In this document: in pieces, positions 23,492 through 35,440 of the stretch
Position numbering within the stretch: the stretch's first letter is position 1
Layout of the letters: every line of letters begins with the position of its first letter
IMG/VR virus record: IMGVR_UViG_3300020576_004352
Location: 23,857-87,856 of that record
Source of the DNA: a virus
Taxonomy: Duplodnaviria > Caudoviricetes
DNA length: 64,000 nt
Reading direction: 5' to 3' (one strand)
Made by a program: the position numbers and the translations under genes
Notes under the pieces: model-generated
The model's database searches: none
Seen by the model: the letters and a program-made list of their open reading frames with translations, nothing else
What the model was told of the DNA's origin: nothing

Positions 23492-23685
23492 ACGTATCTG
23501 AAAAACTACGGATCACAGTTCGCAAGCCCGGAGAAGACGGGCCGAAGTGTGTCTCGGATGCCGTGCCTATCATGGGCTCAGCAAAGATGGTAGAGGCACA
23601 GGTCACTGATCGGATAGAGGCTGCCATTCGTAAAGCCCGTCGTCTCACTGAAACGCTTGACCGCGTCATACCGCGAGGTGCCTGA
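23488..23685 (+). CDS. Small hypothetical protein in lysis cassette
   Basis: Translationally coupled at both ends. Confidence 0.5.
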   Translation: MNVSEKLRITVRKPGEDGPKCVSDAVPIMGSAKMVEAQVTDRIEAAIRKARRLTETLDRVIPRGA

Positions 23686-24131
23686 TGTTCACAAAACCAA
23701 AGCGCCCGGTCAGCCGGGTATTCATTCACTGCTCTGCCTCGGACGCGCTTGGCCCTGCATACAAAGGCGTGGAGCTGGTAAAGACCATAGACAGCTGGCA
23801 CAGGGCACGAGGCTTCAACGATATTGGGTATCACTATGTGATCGACAAGGCCGGTACTCTCATGATCGGGCGCGGTTTAGAGAGAGCCCCTGCTGCACAG
23901 GAAGGGCACAACTCCGGCACCATTGCTATCTGCGTGCATGGCCTTGATGTTTCGAGGTTTACGGTGGAGGCCCTTACAAGCCTTTTGTCCCTGTGCAAAG
24001 AAATCAATACCGCGTATAATGGCAGCATCACCTTTCACGGCCACAGAGAGGTTGCACCTAAGACGTGCCCCGTATTCCCGTATGACAAAGTTCTTGGGTT
24101 AGATAAGTTTGGTAGGATGCCTTTAAAATGA
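23685..24131 (+). CDS. Endolysin, N-acetylmuramoyl-L-alanine amidase (T7 lysozyme / Amidase_2 type)
   Basis: FIHCSA, WHRARGFNDIGYHYVID, GHNSGTIAIC, HGHREV.PKTCP. Confidence 0.93.
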   Translation: MFTKPKRPVSRVFIHCSASDALGPAYKGVELVKTIDSWHRARGFNDIGYHYVIDKAGTLMIGRGLERAPAAQEGHNSGTIAICVHGLDVSRFTVEALTSLLSLCKEINTAYNGSITFHGHREVAPKTCPVFPYDKVLGLDKFGRMPLK

Positions 24132-24285
24132 AGCGGTGTAGTGACTGTAGAACTGTAAAGCCTTTCTCTGAGTTTTATGCTCGAAATGACGCAGTATCAC
24201 CTACGTACCGGAGCCAGTGTAAGAAGTGTTGTTATACATATAGTTATAGATACAATAAGAATAATAAAGAAGAAAATAATGCTAG
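24128..24285 (+). pseudogene. 5' half of an interrupted HNH-like endonuclease gene
   Basis: KRCSDCRTVKPFSEFY...CKKC zinc finger; joins in frame to 28259-28577 when the insert is removed. Confidence 0.8.
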
Positions 24286-24704
24286 AGAACGATTGCTGCG
24301 GGCTTTCCGGTGGCTCTGACGATGACCAAAGTGGAAACCATCGCGTCGAGGTCGAAGGTGGCGGGGCGACATGGGATGAGAACAGCGTCGGCGCTCTGCA
24401 CGGCTAAGGCGGCTTCCCTGTTGGCATGGGGGGCGGTGTCAAGGATGAGCAGATCAATCCCGTTCTCGATGCCTAGCTTCTTGAGGTGTTCGAGCTTGTC
24501 GGCGGTCGCTTGGGTTGCGTCGAGTTTCGGGCTCAGCTCGTTGCCTTCCGCACGGCGAGCATTCCACTTGTAGGCGCTGGCCTGCTGGTCTAAATCGACG
24601 ATGGCAGGGTGCAAGCCTTGTTGTCGAGCATATGCGGCCAAGTGAACGGCGAGGGTTGTCTTGCCGCAACCGCCTTTCTGGCTGACTATCGCTAGGGTGC
24701 GCAT
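24282..24704 (-). pseudogene. parA: Plasmid-type ParA ATPase truncated at the insertion junction
   Basis: MRTLAIVSQKGGCGKTT, VDLDQQAS, LILDTAP, ADAVLIPCRP; stop TAG supplied by the junction after only 140 aa. Confidence 0.85.
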
Positions 24705-24727
24705 GGTTGTACCCTCTTGTTTGTGGT

Positions 24728-24751
24728 ATTGTGATATTGCGTGATTGCGAT
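24728..24751. repeat. Three tandem 8-bp repeats upstream of parA (operator/centromere-like)
   Basis: ATTGTGAT ATTGCGTG ATTGCGAT. Confidence 0.55.
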
Positions 24752-25114
24752 ATAACAATGCGGTTTGTAGCATAACAAGTGTATAGGCGTCAATGTCTCC
24801 CCGCGCACTTCTGGCCCCCGGTATGTGTGTACCGATGTCGCAAGCTGGCTGTTGCGTCAGGGAGCGCGTTACCGCATGGCCTAGACTTCACAGGCCCGGT
24901 GCGCGTCGCACATAGTGCCCGCCCCCCCGCTGGCGCTGGCGTGAGCTGGGATGCAGCACCAAGGCAACGAGATTGCTCAAGGTTGGCGTGTTGAATCGGA
25001 CTAGACTGCGGGAATTTTATCGTCTGTGCCTGTCGCCGGTCGCGCCGCTAGATGCCTAGCCGGGAAAAGGCGGGTGTGTTAGACAATGAATGGCTCTGAC
25101 GAAGGAACTTTTGA

Positions 25115-25930
25115 ATGACAAGAACAACGTGCTTCGACGTTTTTGAACAATGCGTGTTGGCCGTCCAGGCTGGCGAGTTGATTGAGTCCTTGAGCGTGAA
25201 AGACAAGGAATTCCATTTTCAGAACTGGTTTCAGGAGCGATTGCGAACGCTGGCGCTGCATTTCGAGGGTTCCGGTCGAAACACCTATCCTGACTTCTGC
25301 TTGGTTGAATTCACCGAAGGCTATGAGGTCAAGGGGCTTGCATGGCCTGGGCGCGAACGCGACTATGACTCCAACAGCCAAGTGCCAACCGGGTATCACA
25401 ATGGGCGACAAATCTATTATGCGTTTGGTCGCTACCCAGCCGACCTTAGGCCGTTTGCCGACCAAGGCAACGGGCGGCGGCAATATCCGGTGGTTGATCT
25501 GGTGGTATGTCACGGCGACTTTCTGAACGCGGATCACAACTATGTGCATAAAAACAAGAGCGTCAAGGGGTTTGGCACTTACGGCGACATTATGATCCGT
25601 GATCGGAAGATGTACGTTGCGCCAACACCATTTGCGCTTACCGAAGGCACGACCGGCCTGATGACTTTGATCCTGCCTGAACACATCGAAGCTGATGAGC
25701 GTTACCGGGAAGTTGGGCGGCTCACGCGGGTTGAGTCAGAAAGTTTGGTGGTGGGCTACACATTCGATTTGCGGACAAATGAACTCACGGCTGAACGCAT
25801 ATCCAACCCGCAGGCGGGCACAGAACACCACTTCGTCGCATACCGCCTAGCAGAGCAAGCGATGAGACCCGTTTCGATGGTAGCGCGGCTACCAATTCTC
25901 GAAGAGAGCAATGGAGCCGACGACGAATGA
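25115..25930 (+). CDS. Putative type II restriction endonuclease (PD-(D/E)xK)
   Basis: YPDF...GYEVK catalytic motif; ATGA-coupled to a methyltransferase gene. Confidence 0.65.
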   Translation: MTRTTCFDVFEQCVLAVQAGELIESLSVKDKEFHFQNWFQERLRTLALHFEGSGRNTYPDFCLVEFTEGYEVKGLAWPGRERDYDSNSQVPTGYHNGRQIYYAFGRYPADLRPFADQGNGRRQYPVVDLVVCHGDFLNADHNYVHKNKSVKGFGTYGDIMIRDRKMYVAPTPFALTEGTTGLMTLILPEHIEADERYREVGRLTRVESESLVVGYTFDLRTNELTAERISNPQAGTEHHFVAYRLAEQAMRPVSMVARLPILEESNGADDE

Positions 25931-28113
25931 AGTCTGTTGTCAAGACCGTCACGTTCGCAAGGCCCATAACAACGGACACATCGACCGCGCTGGAAGGCGA
26001 CTTCCCAATTGTGGAAGTGAGCCAGGTCGCAGAGCAAGAAAGCTGGCGCAAAGAAATTAATCGCCCGATTTACCACATACACAAGTGGTGGGCGACACGG
26101 CTCGGCTCGGTGTTCCGCGCCATCACGCTTGCCGCCTTGAGTCGCCCGGCGGCTAATATTTGGCAGGGGTTCTACGAGCAACATCGGTTAGCAGGGAAGG
26201 TGGTGCTTGACCCTTTTATGGGAAGCGGTACGACACTCGGCGAAGCGATCAAGCTAGGCGCTAAAGCCGTCGGGTGCGACATCAATCCAGTGAGCAGCTT
26301 CCTGGTGCGCCAAGCATTCACGCGTGTGCCTGAGGCCACGTTACGCGCCGCATTCGTGCGCCTCGAAAGGGAAGTTGCCCCCAAAATTCGCCACTACTAC
26401 CAAACCCGTGATCCACAGTCGGGGAATCACATTCCTGTTCTGTATTTCTTCTGGGTAAAAACCTTGACCACACCGGACGGTGAAACCGTGCCGCTGCTGT
26501 CGCGCTACGTTTTCGCGCAGGACGCTTACCCGAAAAAGAAGCCGAGGGCGCAAATCGTGTGTCCGAAGTGCTGGGGTCTTATTGAAGATCGGTACGATAC
26601 GACTGCGGTGACCTGCCCGCACTGTACCAACGCCTTTAATCCGCAGGAAGGCACGGCGGTTGGGCAGTATGTGACGACGAGGGCAGGAAATCGGTATCGC
26701 ATCAAGGAGCTTTTGCCCGCTGATGGAACGCCCCCGGCGCACCGCCTTTACGCCATGCTCGCGCTGCGGCCTGACGGCGAGAAGGTATATCTACCTGTGC
26801 GTGACGAAGATCGGGTTTTATTCGCGGAGGCCGAAGCGCGGCTTCAAACGGAAACCTTGCCACTGCCAAGATCGGCCGTCCGTCCCGGCCATAACACCGA
26901 CCAGGCACGAGGCTACAATTACACGCATTGGCGCGACTTTTTCAACGCCAGACAGTTGCTCTGCCTTGGCTTGCTGCTGAACGCCATTGTTGAGATAGAA
27001 GACGAAGCGGTTCAAGAACAAATGCTGTGCTTGTTTTCGAGTACGCTTGAATTCAACAACCTGTTTTGCAGCTACAAAGGCGAGGGGACAGGCGCAGTCC
27101 GACATATGTTCTCGCATCACATCTTGAAGCCGGAGCGCACACCGCTGGAAAATTCGGTGTGGGGAACAGACAAGAGTAGCGGGACATTCAGCACATTGTT
27201 CGAGTCACGCTTGATCCGGGCGAAACGCTACCTCGATGATCCTTTCGAGGTGGGGTTGGCACATGACCTTCTAGGTGCGCGTATCGGCGCACAAAAAGTC
27301 AGCGCCAGCGCACCGATTGACGTGCCGTGTTCCGGATCGTGGCAAGAGCTAACGACCAGTGCCAAGGGCGTGTTGATCCTGAACGGCGACAGTGCGCGAC
27401 TGCCTCTCCCGAATGGGACTGTGGACGCGGTCGTCACCGATCCGCCGTATTTCGACTTCGTGCATTACAGCGAGCTAAGCGATTTCTTCTTCGCGTGGCT
27501 CGCGCCGGTGCTGAAAGACCGCTACCCGTGGTTCAACAAGGCGGACTCGTCGGATGCCGGGGAAGTGCAGCAGAAAGACCCGCGAGCCTTCGCCCGCCAA
27601 CTTTCCTATGTGTTCGCTGAAAGCCGTCGTGTGCTGAAGGAGGAAGGTGTTCTCGCTTTCAGTTTCCATCACTCTAGGGCAGATGGATGGGCGGCAATTT
27701 ATGAGGCGGTGGCTAACGCTGGCCTGTTCGTCGTTGCGGCGCATCCGGTTCATGCCGAGCTACGCGCTGCCAGCCCAAAATCAGCGGCCAAAGACCCCAT
27801 TAGCTTAGACGCAATCCTCGTGTGTCGCAAACGGCCACGTGCAGCGAAACACGCATTCTCTGAAGATGATGTGATCCGGCACACCGGCGCACTGGTGCGT
27901 AAGCTCGAAGGAGGGGGAATGACCATATCATCCACTGACCGTTTCGTGATTGGCGCAGCGCAAATGCTTATCGTCGCTTCGGGCGACCTGCTGTCGTTCG
28001 AGGAAATCAGGGATCGGCTGGAAGCGTTGCGCCTGCGGCTGGGACGGAACGAGCAGACACCTGGCATAGATAGTTTCTGGCAACCAGTCGCTGACCGCGT
28101 TGCCGTGCAATAG
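25927..28113 (+). CDS. Amino (probably N6-adenine) DNA methyltransferase, DUF1156-like
   Basis: IHKWWATR, VLDPFMGSGT (motif I), CPKC/CPHC zinc ribbon, VVTDPPYFD (motif IV). Confidence 0.88.
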   Translation: MKSVVKTVTFARPITTDTSTALEGDFPIVEVSQVAEQESWRKEINRPIYHIHKWWATRLGSVFRAITLAALSRPAANIWQGFYEQHRLAGKVVLDPFMGSGTTLGEAIKLGAKAVGCDINPVSSFLVRQAFTRVPEATLRAAFVRLEREVAPKIRHYYQTRDPQSGNHIPVLYFFWVKTLTTPDGETVPLLSRYVFAQDAYPKKKPRAQIVCPKCWGLIEDRYDTTAVTCPHCTNAFNPQEGTAVGQYVTTRAGNRYRIKELLPADGTPPAHRLYAMLALRPDGEKVYLPVRDEDRVLFAEAEARLQTETLPLPRSAVRPGHNTDQARGYNYTHWRDFFNARQLLCLGLLLNAIVEIEDEAVQEQMLCLFSSTLEFNNLFCSYKGEGTGAVRHMFSHHILKPERTPLENSVWGTDKSSGTFSTLFESRLIRAKRYLDDPFEVGLAHDLLGARIGAQKVSASAPIDVPCSGSWQELTTSAKGVLILNGDSARLPLPNGTVDAVVTDPPYFDFVHYSELSDFFFAWLAPVLKDRYPWFNKADSSDAGEVQQKDPRAFARQLSYVFAESRRVLKEEGVLAFSFHHSRADGWAAIYEAVANAGLFVVAAHPVHAELRAASPKSAAKDPISLDAILVCRKRPRAAKHAFSEDDVIRHTGALVRKLEGGGMTISSTDRFVIGAAQMLIVASGDLLSFEEIRDRLEALRLRLGRNEQTPGIDSFWQPVADRVAVQ

Positions 28114-28254
28114 AGCGGTGGTCTGTTCAATCCGCTAAACCTACGACGCAGGCGCGGCATTGCAACCCGCTACGCCAAGAACTCCGCCTCTTTCCTCGCC
28201 GCCGTCCAGATCAGGTGTATGTTCCTTTGGGCAACCATCTCGTGACTACACTGT
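28114..28254 (+). mobile_element. 3' remnant of an IS5-family element (transposase C-terminus plus right end)
   Basis: RRGIATRYAKNSASFLAAVQIRCMFLWATIS*, stop 28243-28245, then CTACACTGT and the CTAG. Confidence 0.8.
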
Positions 28255-28258
28255 CTAG

Positions 28259-28577
28259 GGCAAAAGCATGGAGAGACGCTAATCCCATAAACACCATGTT
28301 AAAGACAGCAAGAAATAGGGCTATTAAACGCAGTCTGCTTTTTGGTATTACTATAGCTGATATACACATACCTAAGAAATGCCCGATACTTGGAATACCC
28401 TTGGTACGGTCTAGTGGGAAGGCCACTGATAACTCTCCTTCGCTTGATAGGATAGACAGCAATAAAGGATATTTACCTGACAATATTCAGGTGATTAGTA
28501 ATCGTGCAAATCTCCTGAAAAGTAACGCCACATTACAAGAGATAAAGGCGCTGTACACATGGATGAAGAAACGATAA
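28259..28577 (+). pseudogene. 3' half of the interrupted HNH-like endonuclease gene
   Basis: CPILGIPL...NSPSLDRIDSNKGYLPDNIQVISNRANLLK. Confidence 0.8.
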
Positions 28578-35334: not shown

Positions 35335-35341
35335 GGGTTAT

Positions 35342-35411
35342 GGGGAGGTAGTTAAACGGATATAACGTAGGCCGGAAAGCCTAGTTGCGGGTTCAAACCC
35401 CGCCCGCCCCA
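35342..35411 (+). ncRNA. 70-nt tRNA-like RNA with a 6-nt anticodon loop
   Basis: Cloverleaf: acceptor GGGGAGG/CCGCCCC (one mismatch), U8, D arm GTTA-AACGGATA-TAAC, stem TAGGC-CGGAAA-GCCTA, T arm GCGGG-TTCAAAC-CCCGC, discriminator A; no encoded CCA. Confidence 0.75.
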
Positions 35412-35440
35412 ACACCCAACGCATACAAGGGAGACTGGAC

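What the first reader, a model, noticed from the sequence alone, without database searches (positions are those of the whole stretch)
24128..28577. HNH-like gene split by a 3969-bp capture with a CTAG duplication but only one IS end
Seen: removing 24286-28258 fuses two ORFs into one 158-aa endonuclease reading NNARAKAW. The right end is an IS5 transposase tail; the left end cuts through the middle of a plasmid parA gene and matches the right end only weakly (TAGAGAACG versus TAGACAGTG). No full transposase is present. Inference: one-ended or cryptic-end IS5 transposition moved plasmid DNA into a dispensable phage gene, or a non-autonomous cargo element.
Basis: seen in the sequence. Interest (0 to 1): 0.8.

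Follow-up and report, generated by a model that had tools for sequence, protein, structure and literature searches.

The report
Plasmid restriction-modification cassette transposed into phage
A phage endonuclease gene is split by about 4 kb copied from a plasmid: half a partition gene, an intact restriction-modification pair and the last 105 bases of a jumping gene. This shows a defence system moving from plasmid to phage with only one real transposon end.

Summary
Removing 24286-28258 restores a 158-aa endonuclease VII/HNH-like gene that aligns end to end with intact homologues.

- **Donor.** It is a metagenomic trfA/parA plasmid family. Contig L024 has intact parA (220 aa) and is 99.9% identical to the insert from 24285. 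L025 and L030 are 100% identical over 24950-28159.
- **Right end.** It is a genuine IRR of an IS5-family, IS427-group element. The 105-bp remnant (28151-28255) is about 91% identical to complete 856-865-bp relatives. Those relatives duplicate TA, so the mobilised unit is 24285-28255 with a TA duplication inside CTAG, not a 4-bp CTAG duplication.
- **Left end.** It is no more IR-like than random plasmid positions.
- **Transposase.** None is present in the 87.9-kb contig.
- **Assembly.** A Logan run (SRR32380203) assembled separately gives the same junctions, so a chimera is very unlikely.
- **Restriction-ligation.** Excluded, because the donor has no CTAG at the parA breakpoint.

Best explanation (about 0.55): a transposase joined the IRR and a non-IR end in parA to the phage target. 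A 9-bp repeat deletion (GGCGCGGCA) truncated the IS before or after that.

Main rival (about 0.25): the IS inserted first and its left part was then replaced by plasmid DNA.

The same stretch was noted elsewhere in this scan.

The parts
24128..24284 (+). 5' part of the split phage endonuclease VII/HNH-like gene. It ends in the left copy of the TA duplication (24283-24284) within CTAG 24282-24285.
   Evidence: The fused ORF aligns 1-157 with intact homologues.
24285..24705 (-). Truncated plasmid parA: codons 1-140 of 220, with the start at 24705. The non-IR left end of the mobilised segment is at 24285 (GAGAACG...).
   Evidence: Pfam CbiA/AAA_31. Donor L024 has the intact 220-aa ParA and reads ...GCGTT|GAGAACG at the break. 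The left end is not IR-like.
24706..25114 (.). Divergent intergenic region. 24706-24822 is plasmid backbone shared by the plasmid family. 24823-25050 is of unknown origin. The conserved R-M unit begins at 25051.
25115..25930 (+). Putative restriction endonuclease (271 aa) with an invariant P59-D60...E71-x-K73 motif. It is intact and identical to the plasmid copy.
   Evidence: It lies directly upstream of the MTase in 77 of 80 metagenome loci. Invariant PD...ExK. Identical protein on plasmid contigs. No Pfam, NCBIfam, PADLOC or PDB match.
25927..28113 (+). DNA methyltransferase (728 aa, N6_N4_Mtase), full length. Its last ~20 codons (28053-28113) are not conserved in related cassettes.
28114..28150 (.). 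37-bp flank of unknown origin between the MTase stop and the IS remnant. It is shared 100% with plasmid contigs L025 and L030.
28151..28255 (+). 105-bp 3' remnant of an IS5-family/IS427-group IS: the last ~35 codons of orfB plus a complete IRR (...ATCTCGTGACTACACTGTC). Its first 9 nt, GGCGCGGCA, are also present at the R-M/SNase junction of the plasmid.
   Evidence: 96/106 identity to L047 over 28150-28255 against 12/49 upstream of that. 9-mer.
28256..28577 (+). Right copy of the TA duplication (28256-28257), followed by the 3' part of the split endonuclease gene.

Best explanation
A 3971-bp piece of a trfA/parA plasmid was inserted into a CTAG site of a phage endonuclease gene by the transposase of an IS5-family, IS427-group insertion sequence. 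One end of the moved segment was the IS's genuine right inverted repeat. The other was an ordinary, non-IR position inside parA that shares only the terminal GA with the IS ends. This is a one-ended or surrogate-end event, and it produced the family's usual TA duplication.

The IS is now only a 105-bp stump. A deletion between two copies of GGCGCGGCA removed the rest. One copy lies at the R-M/SNase junction of the plasmid and the other inside orfB. There are two possible orders:
- deletion after insertion, in which case the transposase was supplied in cis by a then-complete IS;
- deletion before insertion, in which case the transposase came in trans from another copy in the cell.

The result is a phage with an intact, promoter-bearing restriction-modification pair. 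The insert is fixed in place because it has no transposase and no second end.

Shown: the donor, the junctions, the authenticity of the IRR and target, the lack of IR similarity at the left end, and the intactness of R and M.

Inferred: catalysis by the transposase at the left end, the order of events, and expression or benefit of the R-M pair.
For: - **Donor with intact parA.** L024 is 99.9% identical from 24285 onward. L025 and L030 are 100% identical over 24950-28159.
- **Right boundary.** In four distant and seven close relatives, conservation stops exactly at ...ACACTG(Y)C followed by TA(G/A).
- **Complete relatives.** They are 856-865 bp, have two overlapping ORFs and are flanked by TA/TA. 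L044 flanks read TTTA...TAAA, which excludes a 4-bp duplication. This matches the IS427 group as tabulated in PMC3281130 (832-865 bp, DR 2 bp, frameshifted ORFs).
- **Target restored.** Removing the unit and one TA restores an ORF collinear with intact homologues.
- **No CTAG in the donor.** The donor reads GCGTTGAGAACG at the breakpoint, so the flanking TA comes from the target.
- **Reproducible junctions.** They are identical in a Logan contig from run SRR32380203 (L029, 13.3 kb, 100%).
- **The 9-mer.** GGCGCGGCA occurs at IS position 752/758 in relatives and at the plasmid's R-M/SNase junction.
- **Precedent.** One-ended IS1 insertion moved an R-M plasmid with a target duplication (PMC3031569). 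Single-IS transposable modules are known for the IS1380 family (PMC3281130).
Against: - No plasmid contig with the R-M | IS tail | IRR arrangement, and none with a full IS downstream, was found. The only plasmid contigs that reach this point (L025, L030) continue into the SNase gene.
- One-ended transposition has, to my knowledge, not been described for IS427-group elements.
- The left end has no detectable transposase-binding sequence.
- A TA duplication carries little information on its own. The G at 24285 and the C at 28255 could each belong to the insert or to the target.
- No phage with the empty site was found.
Confidence: 0.55

Rival explanations
1. IS first, then replacement. A complete IS427-group element inserted normally into the CTAG of the phage gene and made the TA duplication. 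Later the transposase cut its left end. The break was repaired by capturing a fragment of the L025-type plasmid. That fragment was joined at the flank by 1-2 nt (G/GA) and to the resected IS by the 9-nt microhomology GGCGCGGCA. About 750 bp of the IS were lost.
For: - The plasmid contigs closest to the insert (L025, L030, 0 differences in 3210 bp) carry R-M joined directly to the SNase 3' end. Their sequence diverges from the phage exactly after GGCGCGGCA.
- Identity to IS relatives drops sharply from 91% to background at 28150/28151.
- Both junctions have microhomology: GA at the left and 9 nt at the right.
- No unobserved plasmid intermediate is needed.
Against: - It needs two illegitimate joints in one repair. 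The flank side must have zero resection while the IS side loses ~750 bp.
- It needs transposase cleavage at one end only.
- The G at 28151 matches the IS, not SNase, which slightly favours an older flank|IS junction.
- 24 other 9-mers are shared by chance between the IS and the segment, so the microhomology is weak evidence for any particular route.
- No phage copy with a full IS was seen.
Confidence: 0.25
2. Composite transposon, later eroded. Two IS copies flanked a plasmid segment and moved it by their outer ends. The left IS plus part of parA was then lost, and the right IS was internally deleted.
For: R-M systems flanked by IS copies are known (discussed in PMC3031569). The TA duplication and the authentic IRR fit any transposase-made insertion.
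Against: Not one base of a left IS remains, yet the left TA is intact. A deletion that starts exactly at the outer IS terminus and runs inward is not a known IS-mediated outcome. It also requires two further independent deletions.
Confidence: 0.07
3. Assembly chimera, or restriction-ligation at CTAG sites. The insert would be an artefact, or a fragment cut at CTAG and ligated into a cut CTAG in the phage.
For: CTAG flanks both sides. The record is a metagenome assembly.
Against: - The insertion is precise and restores an ORF.
- The same junctions appear in the JGI contig and in a Logan contig of another run.
- The donor has no CTAG at the parA breakpoint, and one there would be an in-frame stop in parA.
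- Ten internal CTAG sites remain uncut in the insert.
Confidence: 0.02

Closest known systems
IS-linked one-ended movement of a restriction-modification plasmid (IS1; Takahashi et al. 2011, PMC3031569)
   Same: An R-M unit on plasmid DNA is carried into a new site bounded by one genuine IS end and a plasmid end that need not resemble an IR. A normal target duplication results.
   Different: That was IS1 (9-bp duplication) in a laboratory E. coli chromosome, with the whole IS retained. Here it is an IS427-group element (TA), the target is a phage genome, only part of the plasmid moved, and the IS is reduced to 105 bp.
Transposable modules (TMos) and ISEcp1-type mobilisation by a single IS1380-family element (PMC3281130 and references therein)
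   Same: One IS copy supplies one true end, and a surrogate end in flanking DNA defines a cargo segment of arbitrary length.
   Different: It is a different IS family. In those systems the IS stays intact, so the unit can move again, and the surrogate ends usually show some IR likeness. Here there is no IR likeness and no transposase.
IS5 family, IS427 group insertion sequences (e.g. IS1248, ISPaes1; PMC3281130)
   Same: The remnant's orfB C-terminus, the IRR (GACAGTGTAGTCACGAG...) and the TA duplication at YTAR match complete 856-865-bp two-ORF relatives.
   Different: Only the last 105 bp are present. There is no IRL, no orfA and no catalytic domain.
Type II restriction-modification pairs on alphaproteobacterial plasmids (Acidiphilium multivorum pACMV2, Tabrizicola piscis plasmid)
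   Same: The same two-gene module, with 69-72% nucleotide identity and 67-73% MTase amino-acid identity. R overlaps M.
   Different: Those R genes are annotated only as hypothetical proteins. No specificity or activity is known for any member. Here the module sits in a phage.

Membership tests
IS5 family / IS427 group insertion sequence | Terminal inverted repeats of about 13-21 bp at both ends, termini G...C | tested here: not met
   The IRR is present and matches relatives (GACAGTGTAGTCACGAGAT). The left end scores 6/19, no better than 45% of random donor positions.
IS5 family / IS427 group insertion sequence | 2-bp (TA) target duplication at a YTAR target | tested here: met
   TA at 24283-84 and 28256-57 within CTAG. 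Relatives L044, L047 and the Bandiella IS are flanked by TA. DR = 2 bp for the group in PMC3281130.
IS5 family / IS427 group insertion sequence | DDE transposase encoded by two overlapping ORFs (DUF4096 orfA + DDE orfB); element about 830-870 bp | tested here: not met
   Only the last ~35 codons of orfB remain. PF13586 and PF13340 are not found anywhere in the contig. The remnant is 105 bp.
Composite transposon | Two IS copies bracketing the cargo | tested here: not met
   There is no IS sequence at the left end. The plasmid parA sequence abuts the TA directly.
MITE / mobile insertion cassette (non-autonomous element) | Two matching IRs without a transposase, present in several copies | tested here: not met
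   One IR only. Single copy in the contig. No other copy in viral contigs. The 32-nt flank pattern, which lies within the insert, was absent from metagenome contigs.
One-ended / surrogate-end transposition product (TMo, ISEcp1-like, IS1 type II product) | One genuine IS end, one arbitrary donor end, and a normal target duplication | tested here: met
One-ended / surrogate-end transposition product (TMo, ISEcp1-like, IS1 type II product) | Intact IS with transposase forming part of the unit | tested here: not met
   The IS is reduced to 105 bp. A later 9-bp repeat deletion is inferred, not shown.
Type II restriction-modification system | DNA methyltransferase with AdoMet (FxGxG) and catalytic (DPPY) motifs | tested here: met
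   PF01555 at 56 bits against a cut-off of 26.7. DPFMGSG and TDPPYF are invariant in the alignment.
Type II restriction-modification system | Cognate endonuclease | tested here: inconclusive
   The gene is linked in 77/80 loci and has an invariant PD...ExK motif. There is no family, PDB sequence or fold match, and the model pLDDT is 65.7. Activity is not testable here.
ParA partition ATPase | Full-length Walker-type ATPase of about 200-220 aa | tested here: not met
   The window copy has 140 of 220 codons. The donor copy matches NF041546 over 4-202 at 162 bits, below the 180-bit cut-off, and matches Pfam CbiA/AAA_31 above their cut-offs.

The most novel reading that the evidence does not exclude
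IS427-group (IS5-family) transposases can carry out one-ended transposition. A single inverted repeat would be enough to move arbitrary neighbouring DNA with a normal TA duplication. This would be a natural route by which defence cassettes from plasmid cargo slots are loaded into phage genomes and then locked in place by decay of the IS.
Probability: 0.45. Interest if true: 0.65.

Novelty: new variant of a known kind. Interest (0 to 1): 0.5.

Why it matters
Transfer of defence genes between plasmids and phages is usually inferred from distant homology. Here donor and recipient are both in hand at 99.9-100% identity with base-precise junctions, so the mechanism can be read directly.

The case suggests that a small, very common IS type (IS427 group) can mobilise flanking DNA with a single end. 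If so, solo IS ends next to cargo genes are potential launch pads, and annotation pipelines that look for two IRs would miss such events.

The phage now carries the same R-M pair as a widespread plasmid family. By inference, this would let it pre-methylate its DNA against hosts carrying that plasmid, and restrict competitors.

The R gene also marks a large endonuclease family with no characterised member (more than 560 metagenomic relatives).

Tried and rejected
- **Restriction-ligation at CTAG or XbaI-like ends.** Rejected. The donor has GTTGAGAACG, not CTAG, at the break, and ten internal CTAG sites remain.
- **Cryptic IR at the left end.** Rejected by a background test. A TGACGAT motif 33 nt inside the end was judged to be chance.
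- **IS remnant starting right after the MTase stop (28114).** This was my first reading, from weak similarity to distant IS copies. Closer relatives show identity collapsing upstream of 28151.
- **Empty allele or related phages.** None found by exact neighbour proteins or by IMG/VR relatives of the HNH, amidase and 200-aa proteins.
- **Near-identical DNA in the phage and plasmid collections.** None.
- **Flank and junction patterns.** No match in metagenome or viral contigs.
- **MTase relatives in metagenomes.** At most 76% identical, and none carries the flank or the IS tail.
- **Genome scan for the IRR.** It found only more distant Desulfovibrio-type relatives, so it gives no host clue.
- **Fold of the R protein.** pLDDT 65.7, with no Foldseek match and no PDB sequence match.
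- **Integrase or resolvase search.** Negative in the contig, so lysogeny is undetermined.
Full report
**Setting.** The window is bases 23857-87856 of an 87.9-kb linear IMG/VR viral contig, estimated 81% complete. The region around the finding encodes tail proteins, an Amidase_2 endolysin (23685-24131) and small lysis-module genes.

**Observation.** CTAG occurs at 24282-24285 and at 28255-28258.
- Joining 24128-24285 to 28259-28577 gives a 158-aa ORF (...NNARAKAW...).
- This ORF aligns over residues 1-157 with intact 157-177-aa proteins found with the C-terminal half alone, for example P0012 at 46% identity, E 1e-45.
- The family is PHROG 3322 'endonuclease' and PHROG 1035 'endonuclease VII', with weaker HNH hits.

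The two halves are therefore one gene in relatives, and the split is real.

**Content of the insert.**
- On the minus strand are the first 140 codons of a ParA ATPase (Pfam CbiA/AAA_31).
- A 410-bp divergent intergenic region follows.
- Next is a 271-aa ORF that overlaps (ATGA) a 728-aa N6_N4 DNA methyltransferase.
- After the methyltransferase come a 37-bp flank and the tail of an IS5-family transposase.
- The methyltransferase is full length, 73% and 67% identical to those of Acidiphilium pACMV2 and a Tabrizicola plasmid. In both of those the same upstream 'hypothetical protein' is present.
- In 80 metagenome loci holding a relative of the methyltransferase, 77 have the 271-aa gene directly upstream.
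- An alignment of 16 members shows invariant P59-D60...E71-x-K73.

I read this as a type II R-M pair whose endonuclease belongs to a PD-(D/E)xK family with no characterised member. No Pfam, NCBIfam, PADLOC or PDB sequence match and no fold match was obtained.

**Donor.** Exact-protein look-ups found the same R and M proteins on short metagenomic contigs.
- L024 (3.8 kb) carries trfA, an 88-aa gene and an intact 220-aa parA, divergent from R-M. It is 99.9% identical to the window from 24285 to 26682.
- At the breakpoint L024 reads ...GCTGCGTT|GAGAACGATT....
- L025 and L030, from two other runs, are 100% identical to the window from 24950 (L030 from 25664) to 28159.
- The identical ParA is listed in 51 blocks of the collection. 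The backbone is parA, the 88-aa gene, trfA, resolvase and kfrA.
- Upstream of parA these plasmids carry different cargo: a SacI-like endonuclease with a D12 methylase, a methylase with a ResIII helicase, and others.
- This plasmid family is not in PLSDB. The best TrfA match is 62%.

The direction of transfer is clear. parA is whole in the plasmids and cut in the phage, while the endonuclease gene is whole in relatives and cut in the phage.

**The IS end.** The tail matches IS5-family transposase C-termini.
- Across four distant relatives, conservation stops exactly at ...TGAC(G/T)ACA...TC followed by TAG. The Bandiella copy has matching IRs at both ends.
- One IS that recurs in six different contexts (L046-L051) and the related L044 are about 91% identical to window 28150-28255 (96/106). 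Upstream of 28150 identity is at background (12/49).
- These relatives are 856-865 bp with a DUF4096 orfA overlapping a DDE orfB.
- Their IRL reads GACGCTGTAGTCACGAGAT and their IRR reads ATCTCGTGACTACACTG(C/T)C.
- L044 is flanked by TTTA...TAAA. This fits a TA duplication with G...C termini and excludes a 4-bp duplication.
- This matches the IS427 group as tabulated in PMC3281130: 832-865 bp, DR 2 bp, two ORFs with a frameshift.

The moved unit is therefore 24285-28255, flanked by TA within CTAG, and the right junction is an authentic transposase-type junction.

**The left end.** GAGAACGATTGC... shares only GA (and 6/19 positions overall) with the IRs. 45% of all positions in the donor sequence, and 75% of those starting with GA, score at least as well. 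There is no cryptic IR. No transposase domain is present anywhere in the contig.

**Artefact and restriction models.**
- The same phage with identical junctions is present in a 45.9-kb Logan contig of run SRR32380203, 100% identical over 13.3 kb. I cannot tell whether that run comes from the same sample as the JGI assembly. At the least it is a separate assembly.
- A cut-and-ligate origin at CTAG is excluded. The donor has no CTAG at the break, and one there would be an in-frame stop in parA. Ten internal CTAG sites also remain in the insert.
- CTAG is strongly depleted in the phage (42 in 60 kb against about 229 expected) but not in the insert. This fits a recent foreign origin.

**How the IS became a stump.**
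- L025 and L030 diverge from the window right after GGCGCGGCA (28151-28159). They continue into the 3' end of an SNase gene of the plasmid backbone, which is intact in L034 and L035.
- Both contigs end 22 nt later, so their last 30 nt are shared with the L034/L035 backbone. This is where a de Bruijn graph path (assuming k = 31) would merge with other plasmid variants.
- The same 9-mer lies at IS position 752/758 in relatives, spanning the codons W-R-G-I.
- One arrangement therefore derives from the other through this short repeat.
  - Either a plasmid once carried R-M | IS tail, and L025 arose by an 8-bp repeat deletion.
  - Or the L025 type is older, and the IS was joined or truncated at the 9-mer.
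- The G at 28151 matches the IS rather than SNase, which is slight support for the first order.
- 24 other 9-mers are shared by chance between the IS and the segment, so the microhomology does not discriminate strongly.
- The next closest cassette copy (L141, 88.7%) loses homology at 25051 and 28052. The origins of 24823-25050 and 28053-28150 are therefore unknown.

**Mechanism.** The combination points to transposase chemistry at both junctions: the IS family's preferred target, its TA duplication, an intact IRR at one boundary and an arbitrary donor position at the other.
- The simplest history is a one-ended or surrogate-end insertion plus a 9-bp repeat deletion, in either order (confidence about 0.55).
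- A laboratory precedent exists for IS1 carrying an R-M plasmid with one IS end and a normal duplication (PMC3031569).
- Single-IS transposable modules are known for the IS1380 family (PMC3281130).
- To my knowledge nothing comparable has been described for the IS427 group.
- The main rival (about 0.25) is normal IS insertion followed by replacement of its left 750 bp with plasmid DNA through break repair (GA at the left, 9 nt at the right). It needs no unseen plasmid intermediate. However, it requires a two-joint repair with one joint exactly at the IS terminus.
- A decayed composite transposon (about 0.07) and an artefact (about 0.02) are unlikely.

**Consequences (inferred).** R and M are intact, identical to the plasmid copies, and in the same orientation as the surrounding phage genes. 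They come with their own upstream region. The insert lacks a transposase and a second end, so it is immobile. No integrase or resolvase was found, so whether the phage is temperate is open.

**Verdict.** This is a new variant of a known kind, namely IS-linked one-ended movement of an R-M system. It is notable for the plasmid-to-phage direction, the IS family involved and the near-identical donor in hand.

Noticed in passing
L031-L040 (plasmid loci), L024: The donor plasmid family (identical 220-aa ParA listed in 51 collection blocks; trfA, kfrA, resolvase backbone) has a cargo slot between parA and an SNase gene. In different contigs this slot holds different R-M systems. SMODS+SLATT (CBASS-like) genes lie elsewhere on some members. 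The right edge of the slot cuts into SNase at different points (L025 at about aa 127, L031 at aa 140).
   Followed up: partly
window 25115-25930: The 271-aa protein upstream of the methyltransferase has more than 560 metagenomic relatives of its partner gene and is linked to it in 77/80 loci. It has an invariant PD...ExK motif but no Pfam, NCBIfam, PADLOC, PDB or fold match. It is a restriction endonuclease family with no characterised member.
   Followed up: partly
window, whole (outside 24286-28258): CTAG is about five-fold under-represented in the phage DNA (42 sites in 60 kb against about 229 expected from base composition). The 4-kb insert has 10 internal sites.
   Followed up: partly
window 24712: The phage copy has C where all 12 plasmid contigs compared have G, inside the parA Shine-Dalgarno (GAGGCT to GAGGGT on the coding strand). 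This is either a post-transfer change or an unsampled donor variant.
   Followed up: partly
window 28151-28159; L025, L030, L034, L047: The 9-mer GGCGCGGCA is shared by the IS (orfB codons W-R-G-I), the plasmid's R-M/SNase junction and (8 nt of it) the intact SNase gene. It marks the point where the phage and plasmid versions diverge.
   Followed up: yes
window 35341-35413: ARAGORN reports a tRNA-like gene with an undetermined anticodon.
   Followed up: no
L141 (Logan SRR12900986): An 88.7%-identical copy of the R-M pair sits in an unrelated context, next to a 674-aa gene on the opposite strand. The conserved R-M unit (25051-28052 in window coordinates) is therefore itself modular.
   Followed up: partly
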